DNA of 32,935 nt from Omnitrophica bacterium RBG_13_46_9 (GCA_001804045.1 MHFD01000076.1:10136-43070), one strand, 5' to 3'. Shown: positions 3,189 through 26,904, counted from the first letter of the stretch. Numbers and translations: made by a program. The notes: a model not told the origin generated them from the sequence alone.

Positions 3189-4535
3189 GTGTCTATAGAT
3201 TTTAAAATAAAAGATTTCGCATATCCCGCAGAGATTTTAAAGCTCAGGTCTTTTCTGGAAAAAAGCCAGTGGTTCACGCGGGAGAGGCTGGAATACTATC
3301 AGCTCAAAAGGCTGCGGTTGATGTTAAGCCATGCCTATAAGAACGTCCCGTACTATTCGGAGCTATTCGCCAGATTAAAACTCACCCCATCTGATTTCAG
3401 AAGCATCGAGGACCTGAAGAAGGTCCCGCCGCTTGCCAAAAAAGACTTAAAAGAGAACTTTCATAAGCTGGTGGCAAAAAACGCGAAAAGGTTTAACCCC
3501 ATCCTCTGCAGGACCTCCGGTACCTCGGGACACCCCATAGAGTTCTACCTGGATAAGAATTCCAATATCCTTGAATTCTGCTATTATTGGAGATGCTGGT
3601 CCTGGGCGGGTTACAGACTGGGGATGTCTTTCATGGAATTCTCGTTTCATCATTTTCTGAATACAAGCATAAAAGAAGTCGCCTGCCATTCGTTATTGAC
3701 CAACAGATTGATCATCAATCCCGCGCAAATCTCATGTGAAAGTATCGATAAAATCGTCGGAAACATAAAAAGATATAAGCCCATGTTCGTAAAAGGCACG
3801 CCTTCGGCTATTTACATATTCTCGGTCCTTTTGGAAAAGAAAGGTTGCATGGGGGGCCTACCTTTCAAAGGCGTCTTCACCACCGGGGAGCTGGTCCTTC
3901 CTTATCAAAAAGAAAGAATAGAGAAGGTTCTAAATTGCAAGATACTGGACTCTTATGGGCACATGGAAAGAGCTATAGCTGTCTCTCAATGCCCGCAAGG
4001 GACATATCACATAAACTCCGAATATGGCATTTTGGAAGTAGAGACGGGCGAGAAGCCATCATCCGATAAGGGGATAACCGGTCAGATCATAGGGACTTCC
4101 CTACATAATTTTGCAATGCCGCTTATAAGATATAAAATCGGGGATCTGATAGAACTCGACAGGCGCCATGATAACAGGTGTGTGTGCGGAAGGGGCCTGC
4201 CTGCTATTAAAAAAATATACGGGAGGACCCAGGACGTCATCGTGACTAAAGAAGGGAGATTTATAACGAATATATTCCCTTTTTTCGATCTTTGGAAAAA
4301 CATCCTGTGGTTCCAGCTTGTCCAGGAAGATATCGATAAATTTAAACTAATGCTTGTCAAAGATTCGGGTTTCGAGGATAAAGGCATCGACGAACAGTTA
4401 TACACGCTAAAAAGCATATTGGGTAAGGACGCGAAAATCGAGCTGCGATTTTTTAAATTGGACGAGATAAATATCGAAGGCGGCAATAAGTATAGGCCTA
4501 TTGTCTCGCGGGTAGACGTTGCCAAATTTATATGA
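3189..4535 (+). CDS. CapK / phenylacetate-CoA-ligase-like adenylate-forming enzyme
   Basis: 448-aa ORF with a GTG start. It carries the AMP-binding loop TSGTSGHPIEFY and a later YGHMERA-type core. Its stop overlaps the next start (ATGA at 4532-4535). Confidence 0.7.
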   Translation: MSIDFKIKDFAYPAEILKLRSFLEKSQWFTRERLEYYQLKRLRLMLSHAYKNVPYYSELFARLKLTPSDFRSIEDLKKVPPLAKKDLKENFHKLVAKNAKRFNPILCRTSGTSGHPIEFYLDKNSNILEFCYYWRCWSWAGYRLGMSFMEFSFHHFLNTSIKEVACHSLLTNRLIINPAQISCESIDKIVGNIKRYKPMFVKGTPSAIYIFSVLLEKKGCMGGLPFKGVFTTGELVLPYQKERIEKVLNCKILDSYGHMERAIAVSQCPQGTYHINSEYGILEVETGEKPSSDKGITGQIIGTSLHNFAMPLIRYKIGDLIELDRRHDNRCVCGRGLPAIKKIYGRTQDVIVTKEGRFITNIFPFFDLWKNILWFQLVQEDIDKFKLMLVKDSGFEDKGIDEQLYTLKSILGKDAKIELRFFKLDEINIEGGNKYRPIVSRVDVAKFI

Positions 4536-13798: not shown

Positions 13799-14215
13799 TT
13801 ATTTATTACGCAATTTCTCAATTGCTTTTCCTGTCGGAAGAAACAATAGTAGCCGCTTGCCCTCTTTCTCTATTTCAAAAAACCCCTTTATGGCAAGAGC
13901 TATTAAATCCTTACGAGCAGTATCATATGCAATACCGTGAGTATTTTTATGGGCTTCTATTGTATAAATATTATCTGGATGTTGAATAGAGTGATAGATT
14001 AAACTCTTTTGTCGTAAATTTAATCCACGAAACTTATCTAATAGTTCGTTTGCTTTTGATATTTCCCTCTGTTTGTTTTTTAAATATTTTCTCAATTCAT
14101 TCAAAGCAAACCTAATAGCAAGTAAATTGTGAAGCTCCACCGCCTTACAGCGGTGGCTTCTCTTTTTACAGGGTTCCGCTCTATCGGTGGAGCGGAACCC
14201 TGAACCGAAAGCCAT
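13799..14215 (-). pseudogene. Fic-family protein, C-terminal (winged-helix-like) fragment; its first 29 codons are encoded by the inserted element
   Basis: From NLLAIRFALNELRKYL onward it reads as the continuation of the upstream Fic ORF. It is in the same frame as 14249-15277, separated by 33 nt. The ATG and the MAFGSGFRSTDRAEPCKKRSHRCKAVELH leader lie inside the 126-nt element. Confidence 0.7.
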
Positions 14216-14254
14216 TCATCCGCGCCCTTACAGGCGTGGCTTTCTGGTTCATGG
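14129..14254 (-). mobile_element. 126-nt non-autonomous IS200/IS605-like element (PATE/MITE), copy 1, inserted in the Fic gene
   Basis: The reverse complement equals 26779-26904 at 118 of 126 positions; only the 8-nt central loop differs. The left flank on the element strand is TTAC. It has two direct subterminal hairpins with tgtaag loops plus a 13-bp perfect central palindrome. Confidence 0.8.
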
Positions 14255-15277
14255 GTAAACTAGAAAATAAGTCAGATCATTCTCATCATATTCAGTATAA
14301 AGATATCCTCTTACATATTGGCCAGGGGCTCTAAGAAAATGTTTTGAAATAGATAAATATTGAAAAAGTTCATAACCACGGCTCAGGAGATACCAATACA
14401 TCAATGCTCTGGCCGTTCTCCCATTCCCGTCGGTAAAGGGATGATCATACGCTAACCAAAAATGGATCATCGCTCCTTTAATGATGGAATGAATCCAATT
14501 TTCTTCGTCATCTTGATTTACAAACTCAATCAGTTTATTCATCCTGTCCTTTAGCGTATCTGCTTTAGGTGGGATATGCACAGTTTCATCTCTGTATGTA
14601 ACAACAATGTCATCCCTATCCCTAAATTTTCCTGCCTCACTAGGAGATTTCAATGTATCTTGCGTCAAAATAGTATGCAGTTCATAGAGTTTATCTGCAG
14701 AAAAGGGTGTTTTAATATTTTCTCGAATGAATTGCATTGCATGCCAATTGTTAAATATCATCTGCTCATTTTTGTCTTTGGGTTTACGCCCAGACCGTAA
14801 CATTTCTTTTGCAATCCTATACTCTGTTAAGGCCCCTTCTAGCTGGCTAGATGCAATGGCTTCGTCCATTAAAGAGCTTATAATATATTTCTCTTTGGCT
14901 GGAAGGCTAAATGGGTGGTCAGTAATTATTTGTCCCCCAGACCATTTATCAACATCACTTATGCCGCGATGCAGACAATCTGGTATCCAATACGTAAAGG
15001 GTCGATTGTTTTTGTCCATTATAGGTGTAGTTTTCCTGTTTGCGGAACGCCCTAATTTTAAATACGCCCATATTTCTTCAGCCTTGATTTCTATATTATT
15101 CGCTGGCATGCGATGAATAACATCCGACCAATAAAAGTATCGATCGCTGGCTTTGCGTATCAGATTCTGCAGTTCTGGTATTTGACCAATTTTTAGAATC
15201 TTTAAAAAACTTTCCGGGTTACCAAATATACTATTCAGATTTGGAGGTGATTCAACGAGCAAGAAAAAACCTCTCAC
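14249..15277 (-). pseudogene. Fic-family protein (AMPylase-type), N-terminal plus catalytic part, terminated by a stop inside the inserted element
   Basis: Fic motif HPFTDGNGRTAR (14408-14443). Inhibitory-helix-type motif SSQLEG (14834-14851). The ORF ends ...DLTYFLVY-P-stop, with the P codon and TGA contributed by the element. The GTG start at 15277 lies inside a terminator hairpin, so the true start is uncertain. Confidence 0.8.
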
Positions 15278-20562: not shown

Positions 20563-20573
20563 TTAAGCTGCAT

Positions 20574-20589
20574 GCCCTTACAGGCGTGG
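20574..20589 (-). repeat. isolated hairpin module (gcccttacaggcgtgg) identical to the left-end hairpin core of the 126-nt element
   Basis: This 16-mer is identical to 14224-14239 and to the reverse complement of the corresponding core in the 26779-26904 copy. It is embedded in a multi-hairpin spacer between the DUF721 gene and gyrB. Confidence 0.6.
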
Positions 20590-20698
20590 GATCTTTCCTC
20601 TCGCTTCGGCGAAGCGAAGCAACCTCAAAGATTGCTTCGTCGGCCTTAACAGGCCTCCTCGCAATACGAGGCCATTACAAGTATTTATGAGATGGCCT

Positions 20699-21007
20699 CT
20701 ATTTAATTTGGCCGATTCTGAATTGCAGTTCCCTGACTTTTCTTCTGCTTTTTAAATTTTCATTGAACCTTCTTAGCAAACTGTCTTTCTCCAGGGTAAG
20801 CTTGTAAAGCCAGGATGAATCACTTACATTAACAACAAGCCTTTTGGCCCTAAGAAAAGCTGGCCTGGCGTGCTTCGAAGCGCTTTTACCAACCGTTTTC
20901 TCCCATAGTTTTATGATACCCGCTTCATACTCCTCTTTTTTTTTCAGATTTGAAATTATTTTGTTTAATACGCCCTTTAGCGGTTCGGGTTTTTTATCAT
21001 TGTTCAT
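20699..21007 (-). CDS. DUF721 domain protein (DciA-like)
   Basis: 102 aa. It has the typical DUF721 pattern LWEKTVGKSASKHARPAFLRAKRLVVNVSDSSWLYKLTLEKDSLLRRFNENL. It occupies the conserved position between dnaN and gyrB. Confidence 0.7.
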   Translation of the reverse strand: MNNDKKPEPLKGVLNKIISNLKKKEEYEAGIIKLWEKTVGKSASKHARPAFLRAKRLVVNVSDSSWLYKLTLEKDSLLRRFNENLKSRRKVRELQFRIGQIK

Positions 21008-22183: not shown

Positions 22184-22348
22184 CCCCTTATTCTACTTCG
22201 ACTAATAGATATTAATCTTAAAGACAGTAATAATAGTAATAGGGTTAAAAAATGTTGATATTTACATAATATCCATAAAACAAAAGAGTTAGAATAAAAA
22301 ACTTATACACACCTTATCAACATATCCACAGCCACCATTACCACACCA
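22184..22348. promoter_or_regulatory. candidate oriC module (AT-rich unwinding region plus DnaA-box-like 9-mers) in the dnaA-dnaN spacer
   Basis: Very AT-rich stretch at 22200-22300. It is followed by TTATACACA (22303-22311), TTATCAACA (22314-22322) and ATATCCACA (22322-22330). Each is one mismatch from TTATCCACA. Confidence 0.5.
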
Positions 22349-23740
22349 TTAAGAACCACTCTTTATGCTTAAAACCAGTTTATCTATAACCCAACCCATC
22401 TTTTCATCCTTTTTTAAGTCATTTTCAATCTTCTCACAGGCATGAAGGACTGTTGTATGGTCCCTCCCGCCGAAAAAACGCCCTATCTCAGGCAGGGAAA
22501 GATCTGTAAGGTCCCTACTTAAGTACATGGCTATCTGGCGCGGATAAGCCACCGCTTTTGTCCTTTTTTTTATCTTCATGTCTTGCAGATTGATATTAAA
22601 ATATTGAGCCACTTTTTTTTGTATCAGATCGACCCCGACTCTTTTCTCGCCCTCAATAATCATCTCTTTTAATACCTCTTTGGCGAGGTCTATAGTTATG
22701 TCTTTGTTCATCAATTTTGCGTAAGCGACTACGCGTATAAGCGCACCCTCCAGCTCCCTTATATTTGTTTTAACTTTTTCGGCCAACAAGAAAAAGAAAT
22801 CATCGGGCAGGTGTATGGTTTCCGCCTCACATTTCTTTCTTAAAATCGCTATTCTTGTTTCAAAATCGGGCGGCTGGATATCCGTAATCAAACCCCACTC
22901 AAACCTGGATATCAACCTCTCCTCTAAAGTAGGGATTTCTTTGGGCGAACGGTCGCTTGACAGCACTATCTGTTTATGGGCGTCGTACAAAGAATTGAAT
23001 GTATGGAAAAACTCTTCCTGCGTGGCTTCCTTGCCCGCTATGAAATGGATATCATCTATTAAGATCATATCCACAGTGCGGTACTTCTGTCGGAATTTTT
23101 GCGTAGCCCTGTTCTGAATCGCGGATATCAATTGATTTGTGAACTCTTCGCTGGATATATATAATATCTTTGCTCTAGTGTTATTTTTTGCCAGCTCATT
23201 TCCCATCGCGTGCATGAGGTGGGTCTTGCCTAATCCGACACCCCCATATATGAAAAGCGGGTTATACGCTTTGGCGGGGGATTCCGCGATAGCCAATGAG
23301 GCGGCGTGGGCAAATCTGTTGCTCGGGCCCACCACGAAACTGTCAAATGTATATTTTGGATTTAGACCCGTATCTTTTAAAAAAACATCCTCGGCTTGCT
23401 TGGGAAAGACAGACCTGAACCACCCCTTCTTCTGTGTTGGTTTTTTTTCGGATTCCTTTTGGGGCGCCACTTCTTTGACGGCCGAAATAGAGAATTCTAT
23501 ATTTATCTTCTTGTTGGCGATTTCACTCAGGTAGGAACCTAATAGGTTTGAGTATCTTTCTCTGACCCACTCTTTAAAAAATTCATTGGGAACTCCAAGC
23601 GTAAGCGTATCATCCGAAAGAGATACGGGTATTATCGGCGCAAACCATGCATTAAATACCTGCTCACTGACCTCGCTTTTTATGCAGTTCAGGAGGTTGT
23701 CCCACAATTCTTTATGAACATTTTCCACAGGGTTATCCAC
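22349..23740 (-). CDS. dnaA: chromosomal replication initiator DnaA
   Basis: 463 aa. AAA+ Walker A GGVGLGKTHLMHA, Walker B ILIDDIHF, sensor and box VII regions. C-terminal DNA-binding helix GGRDHTTVLHACEKI. The start is GTG at 23740 (alternative GTG at 23728). Confidence 0.96.
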   Translation of the reverse strand: MDNPVENVHKELWDNLLNCIKSEVSEQVFNAWFAPIIPVSLSDDTLTLGVPNEFFKEWVRERYSNLLGSYLSEIANKKINIEFSISAVKEVAPQKESEKKPTQKKGWFRSVFPKQAEDVFLKDTGLNPKYTFDSFVVGPSNRFAHAASLAIAESPAKAYNPLFIYGGVGLGKTHLMHAMGNELAKNNTRAKILYISSEEFTNQLISAIQNRATQKFRQKYRTVDMILIDDIHFIAGKEATQEEFFHTFNSLYDAHKQIVLSSDRSPKEIPTLEERLISRFEWGLITDIQPPDFETRIAILRKKCEAETIHLPDDFFFLLAEKVKTNIRELEGALIRVVAYAKLMNKDITIDLAKEVLKEMIIEGEKRVGVDLIQKKVAQYFNINLQDMKIKKRTKAVAYPRQIAMYLSRDLTDLSLPEIGRFFGGRDHTTVLHACEKIENDLKKDEKMGWVIDKLVLSIKSGS

Positions 23741-23796
23741 AGCTATTCGACCAGTAATTCAATATAAATATACAGTTTATTCACAGGTTATCCACA
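23721..23796 (+). promoter_or_regulatory. cluster of four co-oriented DnaA boxes at the dnaA 5' end / promoter
   Basis: TTTTCCACA 23721-23729, TTATCCACA 23733-23741 (perfect), TTATTCACA 23777-23785, TTATCCACA 23788-23796 (perfect). Confidence 0.65.
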
Positions 23797-24352: not shown

Positions 24353-24493
24353 ATGAAAAAAACATTAAGACCAAAATCCAACCTTAAGAGAAAGCGCAAG
24401 CATGGATTCCGGCGCCGGATGCGCACCAAATCCGGTCGGGACGTTTTAAAAAGACGGAGGAGAAAAAAACACAGGGTCTTGACTGTACAATAA
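24353..24493 (+). CDS. rpmH: 50S ribosomal protein L34
   Basis: Hand translation: [46 protein letters not shown] (46 aa). It has the conserved KRKRxHGFRxRM core and the canonical position upstream of rnpA. It is below the ORF-track length cutoff. Confidence 0.92.
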
Positions 24494-26741: not shown

Positions 26742-26778
26742 ATTGATAAATAAAGTTATGTGGCAGAAATGTATTTAC

Positions 26779-26904
26779 CCATGAACCAGAAAGCCACGCC
26801 TGTAAGGGCGCGGATGAATGGCTTTCGGTTCAGGGTTCCGCTCTATCGGTGGAGCGGAACCCTGTAAAAAGAGAAGCCACCGCTGTAAGGCGGTGGAGCT
26901 TCAC
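26779..26904 (+). mobile_element. 126-nt non-autonomous IS200/IS605-like element (PATE/MITE), copy 2, between yidC and the Jag_N gene
   Basis: The left flank is TTAC (26775-26778). AAAG (26790-26793) precedes hairpin CCACGCC-tgtaag-GGCGCGG (26794-26813). The central palindrome is at 26831-26864. GAAG (26873-26876) precedes hairpin CCACCGC-tgtaag-GCGGTGG (26877-26896). The element ends in TCAC (26901-26904). Confidence 0.8.

What the first reader, a model, noticed from the sequence alone, without database searches (positions are those of the whole stretch)
26779..26904. 126-nt structured element present twice, each copy immediately 3' of TTAC: an IS200/IS605-type non-autonomous element (PATE)
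Seen: 26779-26904 (+) and 14129-14254 (-) are both exactly 126 nt. They are identical at 118 of 126 positions; the 8 differing bases are the central loop (separate finding). Top-strand layout: TTAC(flank) | ccatgaaccag AAAG [CCACGCC tgtaag GGCGCGG] atgaatggctttcggtt [13-bp perfect palindrome] taaaaaga GAAG [CCACCGC tgtaag GCGGTGG] agcTTCAC |. The two subterminal hairpins are similar and in direct orientation. There are no terminal inverted repeats and no target-site duplication. Both copies share the same TTAC on the left flank only. Established (from memory of the IS608 literature): Y1-transposase IS200/IS605 elements move as ssDNA and insert 3' of a fixed tetranucleotide, which is TTAC for IS608. 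They carry similar left and right subterminal hairpins. They recognise their cleavage sites with a 4-nt guide just 5' of each hairpin (IS608: AAAG for TTAC, GAAT for TCAA). Here AAAG precedes the left hairpin with a TTAC flank. GAAG precedes the right hairpin with the element ending in TCAC. The last guide/cleavage position therefore co-varies (T with A in IS608, G with C here). Inference: this is a transposase-less derivative mobilised in trans. No tnpA or tnpB is in the window.
Basis: partly seen in the sequence, partly recalled or inferred. Interest (0 to 1): 0.8.

Follow-up and report, generated by a model that had tools for sequence, protein, structure and literature searches.

The report
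Transposase-less IS200/IS605 mini-transposon (PATE)
The 126-base repeat is a small non-coding mobile element of the well-known IS200/IS605 family: it lacks its own transposase, has recently spread to dozens of sites in this genome, and splits one gene in this window. It is a textbook-clean example, not a new kind of system.

Summary
Both 126-nt copies exist as described, with small corrections: 122/126 positions are identical, not 118; the shared left flank is TTTAC; the 8-nt central loop is exactly reverse-complemented.

I found 32 near-identical copies in 32 different flanks. TTTAC lies immediately 5' in 31 (the 32nd fits with a 1-nt deletion). There are no target duplications and no terminal inverted repeats.

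Copy A interrupts a Fic-family gene. Deleting exactly 126 nt after TTTAC restores a 450-aa ORF that aligns gap-free with intact homologues.

Across about 25 distinct relatives and five autonomous tnpA-carrying IS200-group elements with the same end design, the 4-nt guide 5' of each hairpin predicts the cleavage tetranucleotide by the published IS608 rule (AAAG/TTAC, GAGG/TCAC, AAAT/TTAA, AATA/TTAT, GATA/TCAT).

The two window copies flank oriC in opposite orientation, each with its active strand on the lagging-strand template.

Not found: a cognate transposase with this exact left-end specificity, or the source genome. The window has no tnpA or tnpB.

Verdict: a new member of a known kind (PATE), with moderate-to-low interest. 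Open oddities are a covarying extra left-end stem, variants without the IS608-type left hairpin, and recurrent loop flips.

The parts
26774..26778 (+). Target / left cleavage site of copy B: TTTAC (host flank; cleavage and insertion occur 3' of the C)
   Evidence: Shared by 31/32 copies, with T at -5 in 32/32. Shown to be host sequence by the Fic reconstruction at copy A.
26779..26904 (+). Copy B of the 126-nt PATE. It lies between yidC and jag, with its top strand on the + strand. It carries the flipped central loop.
26779..26789 (+). Left linker / 5' arm (CCATGAACCAG). TGAACC pairs with GGTTCA at 26827-26832 to form stem P1.
   Evidence: MFE fold. Compensatory changes at 3 P1 pairs across 10 distinct relatives.
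26790..26793 (+). Left guide G_L = AAAG, the 4 nt 5' of the left hairpin foot. Predicted to pair with TTAC.
   Evidence: IS608 rule (PMC3201880). Family covariation AxxG/TTAC versus GxxG/TCAC.
26794..26813 (+). Left subterminal hairpin IP_L: CCACGCC-tgtaag-GGCGCGG (one A.C mismatch), followed by AT at 26814-26815.
   Evidence: Four pairs with compensatory change. AT follows the foot, as in the IS608 left end.
26831..26864 (+). Central hairpin: 13-bp perfect palindrome plus 8-nt loop. The motif GGTTCCGCTC is conserved across the family. The loop is inverted relative to the other 31 copies.
   Evidence: (D5). The IS608 left end also has a second hairpin that aids complex formation.
26873..26876 (+). 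Right guide G_R = GAAG. Predicted to pair with the terminal TCAC.
26877..26896 (+). Right subterminal hairpin IP_R: CCACCGC-tgtaag-GCGGTGG (7 perfect bp), followed by AG.
   Evidence: AG follows the foot, as with A-10/G-9 in the IS608 right end.
26901..26904 (+). Right cleavage site C_R = TCAC, the last 4 nt of the element, ending 8 nt after the IP_R foot.
   Evidence: The autonomous relatives have the same 8-nt geometry.
14129..14254 (-). Copy A of the 126-nt PATE, with the canonical loop orientation. Subparts on the - strand: G_L 14243-14240, IP_L 14239-14220, central hairpin 14202-14169, G_R 14160-14157, IP_R 14156-14137, TCAC 14132-14129.
14255..14259 (-). Target TTTAC of copy A. It forms part of codons GTT TAC (Val-Tyr) of the interrupted Fic gene.
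13799..15277 (-). Fic-family gene split by copy A. The 342-aa N-terminal ORF ends at a TGA inside the element. The C-terminal ~109 codons (14128-13799) remain in frame once the element is removed.
   Evidence: Pfam Fic. Restored 450-aa ORF. Intact 445-aa homologues at up to 84% identity and 99% coverage. Gap-free junction. Empty-site DNA in L128.
20565..20608 (-). Decayed right-end-like remnant of a related element: GGAAAGAT-CCCACGCCtgtaagGGCATGC-AGCTTAAAA.
   Evidence: nhmmer E = 0.0065. Sixteen exact nt shared with IP_L. Weak evidence; reported as a probable relic.

Best explanation
The 126-nt repeat is a palindrome-associated transposable element (PATE). It is a non-coding derivative of an IS200-group (IS200/IS605 family) insertion sequence that keeps only the left and right ends.

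Proposed mechanism:
1. On the top strand, in single-stranded form, a Y1 HUH transposase (TnpA) supplied in trans binds the two similar subterminal hairpins.
2. The 4 nt 5' of each hairpin foot act as DNA guides. AAAG pairs with the flanking TTAC, and GAAG pairs with the terminal TCAC.
3. TnpA cuts 3' of each tetranucleotide, releases a single-stranded circle and reseals the donor.
4. The circle integrates 3' of another (T)TTAC in single-stranded DNA, preferentially on the lagging-strand template, with no duplication.

Shown here: the anatomy, the target specificity, precise insertion without duplication, guide/cleavage covariation, homology of the ends to tnpA-carrying elements, and orientation relative to oriC.

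Inferred: catalysis by TnpA in trans, the single-stranded circle, and that the element is still mobile today.
For: - Copy number and flanks: 32 copies at >=94% identity (28 identical) lie in unrelated flanks. TTTAC is on the left in 31/32, the right flanks are variable, and there are no duplications or inverted terminal repeats.
- Precise insertion: copy A sits between two invariant codons of a Fic gene. Removing 126 nt restores a 450-aa ORF that aligns gap-free with 445-aa homologues. A homologue's DNA reads ttagtttat|aatttac at that site.
- IS608 rule from PMC3201880 (guide position 1 pairs with cleavage position 2, position 2 with position 1, position 4 with position 4, position 3 unpaired). 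The window fits at both ends.
- Family covariation: about 20 distinct elements with left guide AxxG have flank TTAC. Those with GAAG or GAGG have TCAC. The base after the hairpin foot also shifts from AT to AG in the GAGG subfamily, as the base-triple network predicts.
- Autonomous relatives encoding a full Y1_Tnp (PF01797, E = 3e-29) have the same hairpins and geometry and obey the rule: AATA/TTAT, AAAT/TTAA, AATT/TTAA, GATG/TCAC, AATG/TTAC, GATA/TCAT. The L035 right end is identical over 32 nt to the right ends of PATE subfamilies.
- All four helices show compensatory changes: 11 pairs against 4.9 +/- 1.4 in shuffles.
- Orientation: the two window copies flank oriC (dnaA, DnaA boxes, rpmH-rnpA-yidC) in opposite orientation. 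Each has its top strand on the lagging-strand template, as reported for this family (PMC5027513). In addition, 22/26 copies are co-oriented with the upstream gene.
Against: - No tnpA was found in the window or in about 200 kb of contigs from the likely source genome.
- None of the five autonomous clusters examined has the AAAG/TTAC left-end specificity. The trans-acting partner is therefore unproven.
- The MFE fold pairs the left guide AAAG with a downstream CTTT. That pairing would have to open for guide function, and it is invariant, so it is untested by covariation.
- Eight related variants lack the IS608-type left hairpin and guide yet keep the TTTAC|CC boundary.
- Single relatives have flank TGAC (L009) or TTAT (L119).
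- One-hairpin mini forms with guide AAAG end in TCAC, which breaks the rule at one position.
- The orientation evidence is confounded with gene strand.
Confidence: 0.9

Rival explanations
1. A REP-like host repeat handled by a domesticated RAYT (REP-associated tyrosine transposase), not a true transposon derivative. It would be maintained for host functions such as mRNA stabilisation or nucleoid organisation.
For: RAYTs are relatives of IS200 TnpA. The 43-44-nt one-hairpin mini forms look REP-like. Copies are mostly intergenic and co-oriented with genes.
Against: - The two hairpins are in direct orientation with distinct left and right ends, not inverted REP doublets.
- Copy A disrupts a conserved gene.
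- The ends are homologous to those of bona fide multicopy tnpA-carrying IS.
- The left flank is an insertion target and not part of the repeat.
- No RAYT gene was seen, although none was specifically searched for beyond tblastn with TnpA.
Confidence: 0.04
2. The element's main role is as a structured RNA. One option is a PATE carrying a guide (omega) RNA for a TnpB or IscB nuclease acting in trans, as described for some PATEs. Another is an independent small-RNA gene.
For: The element has strong structure with covariation. Its top strand is usually in the sense orientation of neighbouring genes. Meers et al. note that PATEs often encode omega RNAs (PMC10055086).
Against: - There is no Rfam match even at E <= 10.
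- No promoter-like site lies in or upstream of copy B on the top strand.
- The autonomous relatives carry tnpA only, with just 32 nt after the stop codon, which leaves no room for an omega-RNA scaffold.
- No tnpB lies upstream of any right end examined.
- Hairpin covariation is equally expected for single-stranded DNA recognition.
Confidence: 0.05
3. The element is a transposon derivative that is now immobile: a fossil of a past burst, possibly retained as a terminator or insulator for antisense transcription.
For: No transposase was found. On the bottom strand both hairpins are followed by T-rich tails and score as terminator-like: 2 found against 0.3 expected. The guide may be sequestered in the fold.
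Against: Twenty-eight of 32 copies are identical over 126 nt, and one sits in an otherwise intact-looking gene. Both point to very recent movement. The terminator resemblance follows automatically from the purine-rich guides and linker.
Confidence: 0.12
4. The copies were spread by segmental duplication or recombination, not by transposition.
For: None specific.
Against: Identity stops exactly at TTTAC| and at ...TCAC| in 32 different contexts. The excision reconstruction is precise to the nucleotide.
Confidence: 0.01

Closest known systems
PATEs (palindrome-associated transposable elements) of Haloquadratum walsbyi, e.g. HqIRS46 (Dyall-Smith et al. 2011, PMC3119063)
   Same: - No terminal inverted repeats, near-terminal palindromes in direct orientation and similar to each other, no target duplication, and too short to encode a transposase.
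- A 4-5 nt targeting sequence on the 5' side only, and a longer distance from the end to the palindrome at the 5' end than at the 3' end.
- 'Homogeneous' high-copy types.
- 'Terminal-only' ~52-bp versions made by deletion between the two palindromes, which correspond to the 43-44-nt mini forms here.
   Different: The host is a bacterial candidate phylum (probably Omnitrophota) instead of a haloarchaeon. The relatives are tnpA-only IS200-group elements, not IS1341/tnpB-rich IS605-type elements. There is an additional covarying P1 stem and a conserved central hairpin.
IS608 of Helicobacter pylori (IS200/IS605 family paradigm; He et al. 2011, PMC3201880)
   Same: - Target and left cleavage site TTAC with left guide AAAG 5' of the left hairpin.
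- The same guide/cleavage pairing scheme at the right end.
- AT after the left hairpin foot and AG after the right hairpin foot.
- A second hairpin in the left end.
- Top-strand and lagging-strand-template orientation.
   Different: - There are no tnpA or tnpB genes.
- The right cleavage site is TCAC with guide GAAG, against TCAA and GAAT in IS608.
- The spacing is 15 nt (left) and 8 nt (right), against 19 and 10.
- There is a strong preference for T at -5 (TTTAC).
- The hairpin sequences are unrelated to those of IS608.
Autonomous IS200-group elements found here in metagenomes (L035, L129, L135, L137-L148; 142-aa Y1_Tnp)
   Same: They have the same hairpin type (C[C/T]A[C/T]NNN-cgtaag-NNN[G/A]T[G/A]G), the same 14-15 nt and 8 nt geometry, AT / AG-type dinucleotides after the feet, and GATGAA after the left hairpin. 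The L035 right end is identical over 32 nt to that of several PATE subfamilies.
   Different: They carry tnpA. Their left guides and targets differ (AATA/TTAT, AAAT/TTAA, AATT/TTAA). They lack the long P1 stem and the GGTTCCGCTCCAC central hairpin.
PATE-like non-autonomous elements of Geobacillus stearothermophilus ISGst family (Meers et al. 2023, PMC10055086)
   Same: They are gene-less elements that share left and right ends with autonomous IS200/IS605 elements, are predicted to be mobilised in trans, and show clade-specific target and terminal motifs.
   Different: Those elements belong to TnpB/IscB-carrying clades and often encode omega RNAs. Nothing here indicates that.
REP elements / RAYT
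   Same: They are short GC-rich hairpins with a conserved tetranucleotide 5' of the stem, and the associated enzyme is a Y1 HUH protein. The mini one-hairpin forms resemble REPs.
   Different: REPs typically occur as inverted doublets, are not inserted 3' of a fixed target, and lack distinct left and right ends.

Membership tests
PATE (definition of PMC3119063, Table 4) | No terminal inverted repeats | tested here: met
   The ends CCATGAACCAG... and ...GGAGCTTCAC are not reverse complements. The repeat finder reports only the internal hairpins.
PATE (definition of PMC3119063, Table 4) | Palindromes close to both termini, similar to each other | tested here: met
   IP_L starts 15 nt from the left end and IP_R ends 8 nt from the right end. 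Both match AAGCCACSSCTGTAAGGSSGYGG. Both are supported by covariation.
PATE (definition of PMC3119063, Table 4) | No target duplication | tested here: met
   In 32 copies the right flank is unrelated to the left flank. The nucleotide-exact empty site was reconstructed in the Fic gene.
PATE (definition of PMC3119063, Table 4) | Too short to encode a transposase | tested here: met
   The element is 126 nt, with stop codons in 4 of 6 frames.
PATE (definition of PMC3119063, Table 4) | Palindromes and ends related to those of IS200/IS605-type transposons | tested here: met
   L035, L129 and L141-148 carry tnpA (Y1_Tnp) between ends of the same design. The L035 right end is 32/32 identical to the right ends of PATE subfamilies.
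IS200/IS605 family (IS608-type mechanism) | Insertion 3' of a fixed tetra- or pentanucleotide that also serves as the left cleavage site | tested here: met
   TTTAC in 31/32 copies; the 32nd (L056) is compatible with TTTAC plus a 1-nt deletion.
IS200/IS605 family (IS608-type mechanism) | Guide tetranucleotide 5' of each hairpin foot, complementary to the cleavage site by the IS608 scheme | tested here: met
   The window has AAAG/TTAC and GAAG/TCAC. There is covariation across about 25 elements and 5 autonomous relatives. Exceptions are L009, L119, and the mini forms with AAAG and TCAC.
IS200/IS605 family (IS608-type mechanism) | Y1 HUH transposase (TnpA) encoded in the element or available in trans in the same cell | not testable with these tools
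   There is none in the window or in the fetched contigs of the likely source genome. Homologous TnpA exists in related elements elsewhere.
IS200/IS605 family (IS608-type mechanism) | [quoted passage not shown] | tested here: inconclusive
   Both window copies have the top strand on the lagging-strand template on either side of oriC, and 22/26 copies are co-oriented with genes. This is consistent but confounded with gene strand. No circle junction is present in the held sequence.
MITE (classical) | Terminal inverted repeats and target-site duplication | tested here: not met
   Neither is present.
REP / RAYT system | Hairpins in inverted doublets; a RAYT gene flanked by REPs | tested here: not met
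   The hairpins are in direct orientation within one element. No Y1 gene lies near any copy. A RAYT elsewhere in the genome could not be excluded.
TnpB/IscB omega-RNA-bearing element | Right end overlaps a guide-RNA scaffold; tnpB or iscB present in related elements | tested here: not met
   There is no Rfam hit. No tnpB lies upstream of any right end. The autonomous relatives are tnpA-only.

The most novel reading that the evidence does not exclude
In this clade, left-end recognition may not be purely IS608-like.

A covarying stem (P1) joins the 11-nt linker to sequence 3' of the left hairpin. In the predicted fold it continues into a pairing that sequesters the left guide AAAG. A set of relatives (L003, L008, L017, L027, L045, L073, L103, L123) has replaced the IS608-type left hairpin and guide with an unrelated hairpin, yet keeps P1, the TTTAC|CC boundary, the conserved GGTTCCGCTCCAC central hairpin and the right end.

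If those variants are mobile, the left end would be defined by a three-way-junction or P1 architecture, possibly a structural switch gating left-end cleavage. That would be a variant of the Y1 transposition mechanism.
Probability: 0.12. Interest if true: 0.55.

Novelty: new member of a known kind. Interest (0 to 1): 0.3.

Why it matters
This is a very clean natural example of DNA-guided target choice in single-strand transposition. Within one sequence family, the guide tetranucleotide and the target or terminal tetranucleotide change together (TTAC, TCAC, TTAA, TTAT, TCAT), exactly as the IS608 crystal-structure rules predict.

For annotation, it explains a split Fic gene and dozens of 'orphan' structured repeats in genomes of poorly studied candidate phyla (Omnitrophota, Ratteibacteria, Auribacterota and others). 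It also provides a marker of replication direction in fragmentary assemblies.

It does not reveal a new type of system.

Tried and rejected
- Viral contig scan with the hairpin pattern: no hits.
- Rfam at gathering threshold and at E <= 10: only chance-level snoRNA/miRNA hits.
- tblastn for TnpA in all 127 fetched loci and the window: only L035.
- Exact-protein look-ups of the window's YidC and ParA, to find the source contig or an empty site for copy B: not on record.
- PDB search with the reconstructed Fic protein: alignments covered only residues ~130-350 and did not span the junction usefully. I replaced this with an alignment of full-length homologues.
- Five TnpA clusters examined for a cognate left end (guide AAAG, target TTAC): none matched. 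All had other guide/target pairs.
- Search for tnpB-like ORFs upstream of right ends that lack a nearby left end: only a porin-like protein and a glycyl-tRNA synthetase.
- Right-end/left-end junction (circle or tandem) in held sequence: none.
- Guide-sequestering pairing P2 (AAAG:CTTT): nearly invariant, so covariation cannot support or refute it.
- Top-strand intrinsic terminator: not predicted. Only the bottom strand scores.
- Integron attC and classical MITE readings were rejected from the sequence itself: no inverted core sites, no inverted terminal repeats, no duplication.
- GC skew as independent support for the origin: it simply follows gene strand in this window. I relied on dnaA synteny and DnaA boxes instead.

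Full report
**1. Observation**

Three corrections apply:
- Only four aligned columns differ, so identity is 122/126, not 118/126.
- The two versions of the central loop are exact reverse complements. The 34-nt central hairpin is therefore a direct repeat on the + strand, inside an otherwise inverted pair (D5 versus I1).
- The identity block includes five flank bases, TTTAC (I1).

The left hairpin has one A.C mismatch and the right hairpin is perfect. A degenerate pattern that matches both hairpins occurs four times in the window and never in 100 shuffles. As single-stranded DNA the element folds with z = -8.9 on the top strand and -7.9 on the bottom strand.

**2. Copies elsewhere**

One scan of species-representative genomes with the hairpin pattern found nine loci. 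They are in MAGs labelled Omnitrophota (4), Ratteibacteria (2), Auribacterota, Planctomycetia and Gammaproteobacteria.

Thirty further copies of the same 126-nt element turned up, almost all on contigs of one data set, Ga0154667. With the window's two, that makes 32 copies, of which 28 are identical. Every copy lies in a different flank.

- The five bases to the left are TTTAC in 31 copies. The exception, L056, reads TTTAC|CATGAACC, which is TTTAC followed by an element that has lost one C.
- The right flank is variable and unrelated to the left flank.
- There is no target duplication and no terminal inverted repeat.
- Only window copy B has the flipped loop.

**3. A nucleotide-exact insertion**

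Copy A lies inside a Fic-family gene (Pfam Fic). The upstream ORF ends at a TGA supplied by the element.

Removing exactly 14129-14254 restores a single 450-aa ORF. More than a hundred intact ~445-aa homologues match it at 99% coverage and up to 84% identity; one is labelled Candidatus Omnitrophica. The alignment is gap-free through ...DLTYFLVY|NLL..., and the junction residues are invariant.

The DNA of an uninterrupted homologue reads ttagtttat|aatttac, where the window reads ctagtttac|[126 nt]|aatttac.

This shows two things. The insertion is precise and makes no duplication. TTTAC also belongs to the host (codons Val-Tyr), so it is a target and not part of the element.

**4. The guide rule**

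- In IS608 the cleavage sites (TTAC on the left, in the flank, 19 nt from the hairpin foot; TCAA on the right, 10 nt from the foot) are read by the 4 nt 5' of each hairpin foot.
- At the right end C-3 pairs with G-35 and T-4 pairs with A-34. A-2 is unpaired.
- The two bases just 3' of the foot (A-10, G-9) form base triples. The left end has AT in the equivalent place.

So guide position 1 pairs with cleavage position 2, position 2 with position 1, and position 4 with position 4.

The window element fits at every paired position on both ends (AAAG/TTAC and GAAG/TCAC). It has AT after the left foot and AG after the right foot, as IS608 does.

Across the distinct relatives:

| Left guide | Left flank | Support |
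|---|---|---|
| AAAG, AACG, AAGG, AATG | TTAC | about 20 distinct elements |
| GAAG | TCAC | L030 |
| GAGG | TCAC | L025 group (six loci), plus mini forms |

- Guide position 2 is always A, position 4 almost always G, and position 3 is free.
- In the GAGG subfamily the dinucleotide after the left foot changes from AT to AG.
- Exceptions are single elements with flank TGAC (L009) or TTAT (L119). One-hairpin mini forms with guide AAAG also end in TCAC.

**5. Autonomous relatives**

In L035 the right-end hairpin directly follows an ORF that is a full-length Y1_Tnp match (PF01797, E = 3e-29), with HUH and catalytic-Tyr motifs. Its right end, GATG-CCACGGCCGTAAGGCCGTGG-AGCTTCAC, is identical over 32 nt to that of several transposase-less subfamilies. 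A protein search found 795 relatives, mostly 142 aa.

The genomic contexts of five clusters show tnpA-only elements of about 540-600 bp with the same design. That design is a cleavage site, 14-15 nt including the guide, the left hairpin, AT..., tnpA, the right guide, the right hairpin, then 8 nt to the end.

| Element | Left guide → left cleavage site | Right guide → right terminus |
|---|---|---|
| L129 / L035 | AATA → TTTAT\| | GATG → TCAC\| |
| L135 | AAAT → TTAA\| | AATG → TTAC\| |
| L141-148 (at least six different flanks) | AAAT → TTTAA\| | GATG → TCAC\| |
| L137-139 | AATT → TTAA\| | GATA → TCAT\| |
| L140 | AATT → TTTAA\| | not determined |

The rule predicts the cleavage tetranucleotide in every case. 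None of these elements has the AAAG/TTAC left end, so the partner of the window element is not identified.

**6. Structure**

On ten distinct relatives of the 120-126-nt class, a composite structure has 93% of cells paired, against 35-52% when the partners are slid. It has 11 pairs with changes on both sides, against 4.9 +/- 1.4 in shuffles (0/500 shuffles reached 11).

| Helix | Pairs with compensatory change |
|---|---|
| P1 (outer stem: linker TGAACC with GGTTCA 3' of the left hairpin) | 3 |
| Left hairpin | 4 |
| Central hairpin | 2 |
| Right hairpin | 2 |

The MFE fold also pairs the left guide with a downstream CTTT. This pairing is invariant, so covariation neither supports nor refutes it.

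The IS608 left end likewise has a second hairpin whose deletion lowers complex formation. P1 is weak or absent in the autonomous relatives I examined.

**7. Genomic setting**

The window holds the chromosomal origin.
- Leftward on the - strand: dnaA (22349-23740), dnaN, gyrB, gyrA, tRNA-Glu and the Fic gene.
- Rightward on the + strand: rpmH (24353-24493), rnpA, yidC, jag, parA and parB.
- A cluster of DnaA boxes lies at 23721-23796.

Copy A (- strand) is on the left replichore and copy B (+ strand) on the right. In both, the active top strand is the lagging-strand template, the orientation reported for this family (PMC5027513). Among the other copies, 22/26 are co-oriented with the upstream long ORF and 19/25 with the downstream one, and most are intergenic. 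This is consistent with the model but confounded with gene strand.

No tnpA or tnpB is in the window.

**8. Comparison with what is known**

Dyall-Smith et al. 2011 (PMC3119063) defined PATEs by four features: no terminal inverted repeats, near-terminal palindromes, no target duplication, and being too short for a transposase. They showed that PATE palindromes match those of IS605-type transposons. They also described 'terminal-only' ~52-bp forms, made by deletion between the two palindromes.

The window element meets all these criteria. The 43-44-nt one-hairpin forms in the family (L001, L005, L016, L018 and others) are the same phenomenon. Meers et al. 2023 describe comparable gene-less elements in Geobacillus.

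This is therefore a new member of a known kind. It differs from IS608 in:
- the right cleavage site (TCAC instead of TCAA);
- spacing (15 and 8 nt instead of 19 and 10);
- the preference for T at -5;
- the P1 stem;
- affiliation with tnpA-only IS200-group elements.

**9. Rivals**

- A REP/RAYT reading is disfavoured by the direct orientation of the hairpins, the distinct ends, the gene disruption and the homologous autonomous IS.
- An RNA or omega-RNA reading lacks any support: no Rfam hit, no tnpB near any right end, and only 32 nt after tnpA in the relatives.
- A 'fossil' reading cannot be excluded without the genome, but 28 identical copies argue for very recent movement.
- Bottom-strand terminator-like features are a plausible by-product of the purine-rich guides and linker.

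**10. What remains open**

- The cognate transposase.
- The meaning of T at -5.
- Whether P1 and guide sequestration regulate left-end cleavage.
- How relatives that replaced the IS608-type left hairpin with another hairpin (L003, L008, L017, L027, L045, L073, L103, L123) keep the same boundaries.
- The recurrent inversion of the central hairpin (window copy B; L013 versus L059/L071). The most economical explanation is a hairpin-mediated minute inversion at a perfect palindrome. This is an inference and was not tested.

Noticed in passing
window 26831-26864 vs 14169-14202; L013 vs L059/L071: The central hairpin is inverted (loop reverse-complemented) in window copy B only, 1 of 32 copies. The same kind of flip occurred independently in another subfamily: L013 has GCTCAAACCGTGGAGC, while L059 and L071 have GCTCCACGGTTTGAGC. 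A likely cause is a hairpin-mediated minute inversion or template switch at a perfect 13-bp palindrome.
   Followed up: partly
window 23721-23796, 22303-22330, 24353-24493: This is the chromosomal replication origin region. Four DnaA boxes (two perfect TTATCCACA) lie just upstream of dnaA, a second cluster lies between dnaA and dnaN, and rpmH-rnpA-yidC-jag-parA-parB run on the other side. The window has 20 boxes with at most 1 mismatch, against 7.7 expected.
   Followed up: partly
window 20609-20700 (-): A separate ~92-nt structured repeat (three short hairpins) lies between gyrB and the upstream ORF. It is 96% identical to L042 2330-2421 (contig Ga0154667_121). It is unrelated in sequence to the 126-nt element, and its nature is unknown.
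   Followed up: partly
window 20565-20608 (-): A decayed right-end-like remnant, GGAAAGAT-CCCACGCCtgtaagGGCATGC-AGCTTAAAA, shares 16 exact nt with the left hairpin of the 126-nt element. It is probably a relic of an older family member, in the same orientation as copy A.
   Followed up: partly
window 26877-26896 and 26794-26813, bottom strand: On the bottom strand both subterminal hairpins are followed by T-rich tails (CTTCTCTTTT, CTTTCTGGTT) and score as intrinsic-terminator-like: 2 found against 0.3 expected. They could stop antisense transcription.
   Followed up: no
L035 1864-1869: The tnpA of L035 has an in-frame TGA (...YLKRTI*AISRYY...), while its 90%-identical relative P0121 is intact. 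This is either a pseudogene or a recoded stop.
   Followed up: no
L003, L008, L017, L027, L045, L073, L103, L123: These relatives keep the TTTAC|CC left boundary, the P1 stem, the central hairpin and the right end. In them the IS608-type left hairpin and guide are replaced by an unrelated hairpin, often TCCCG...CGGGA. L008 shows a pseudoknot-like crossing of two stems.
   Followed up: partly
L084 vs L040 vs L121 (same flanks): The same insertion site in different samples carries elements of 75, 137 and 159 nt. These are internal deletion variants arising in place.
   Followed up: no
window 3189-4535 (+): A 448-aa ORF inside a glycosyltransferase / radical-SAM gene cluster has no Pfam match.
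   Followed up: no
L001-L009: Closely related elements (about 90% identical over 120 nt) occur in MAGs assigned to different phyla: Omnitrophota, Ratteibacteria, and a Gammaproteobacteria-labelled bin. This reflects either horizontal spread or mis-binning.
   Followed up: no
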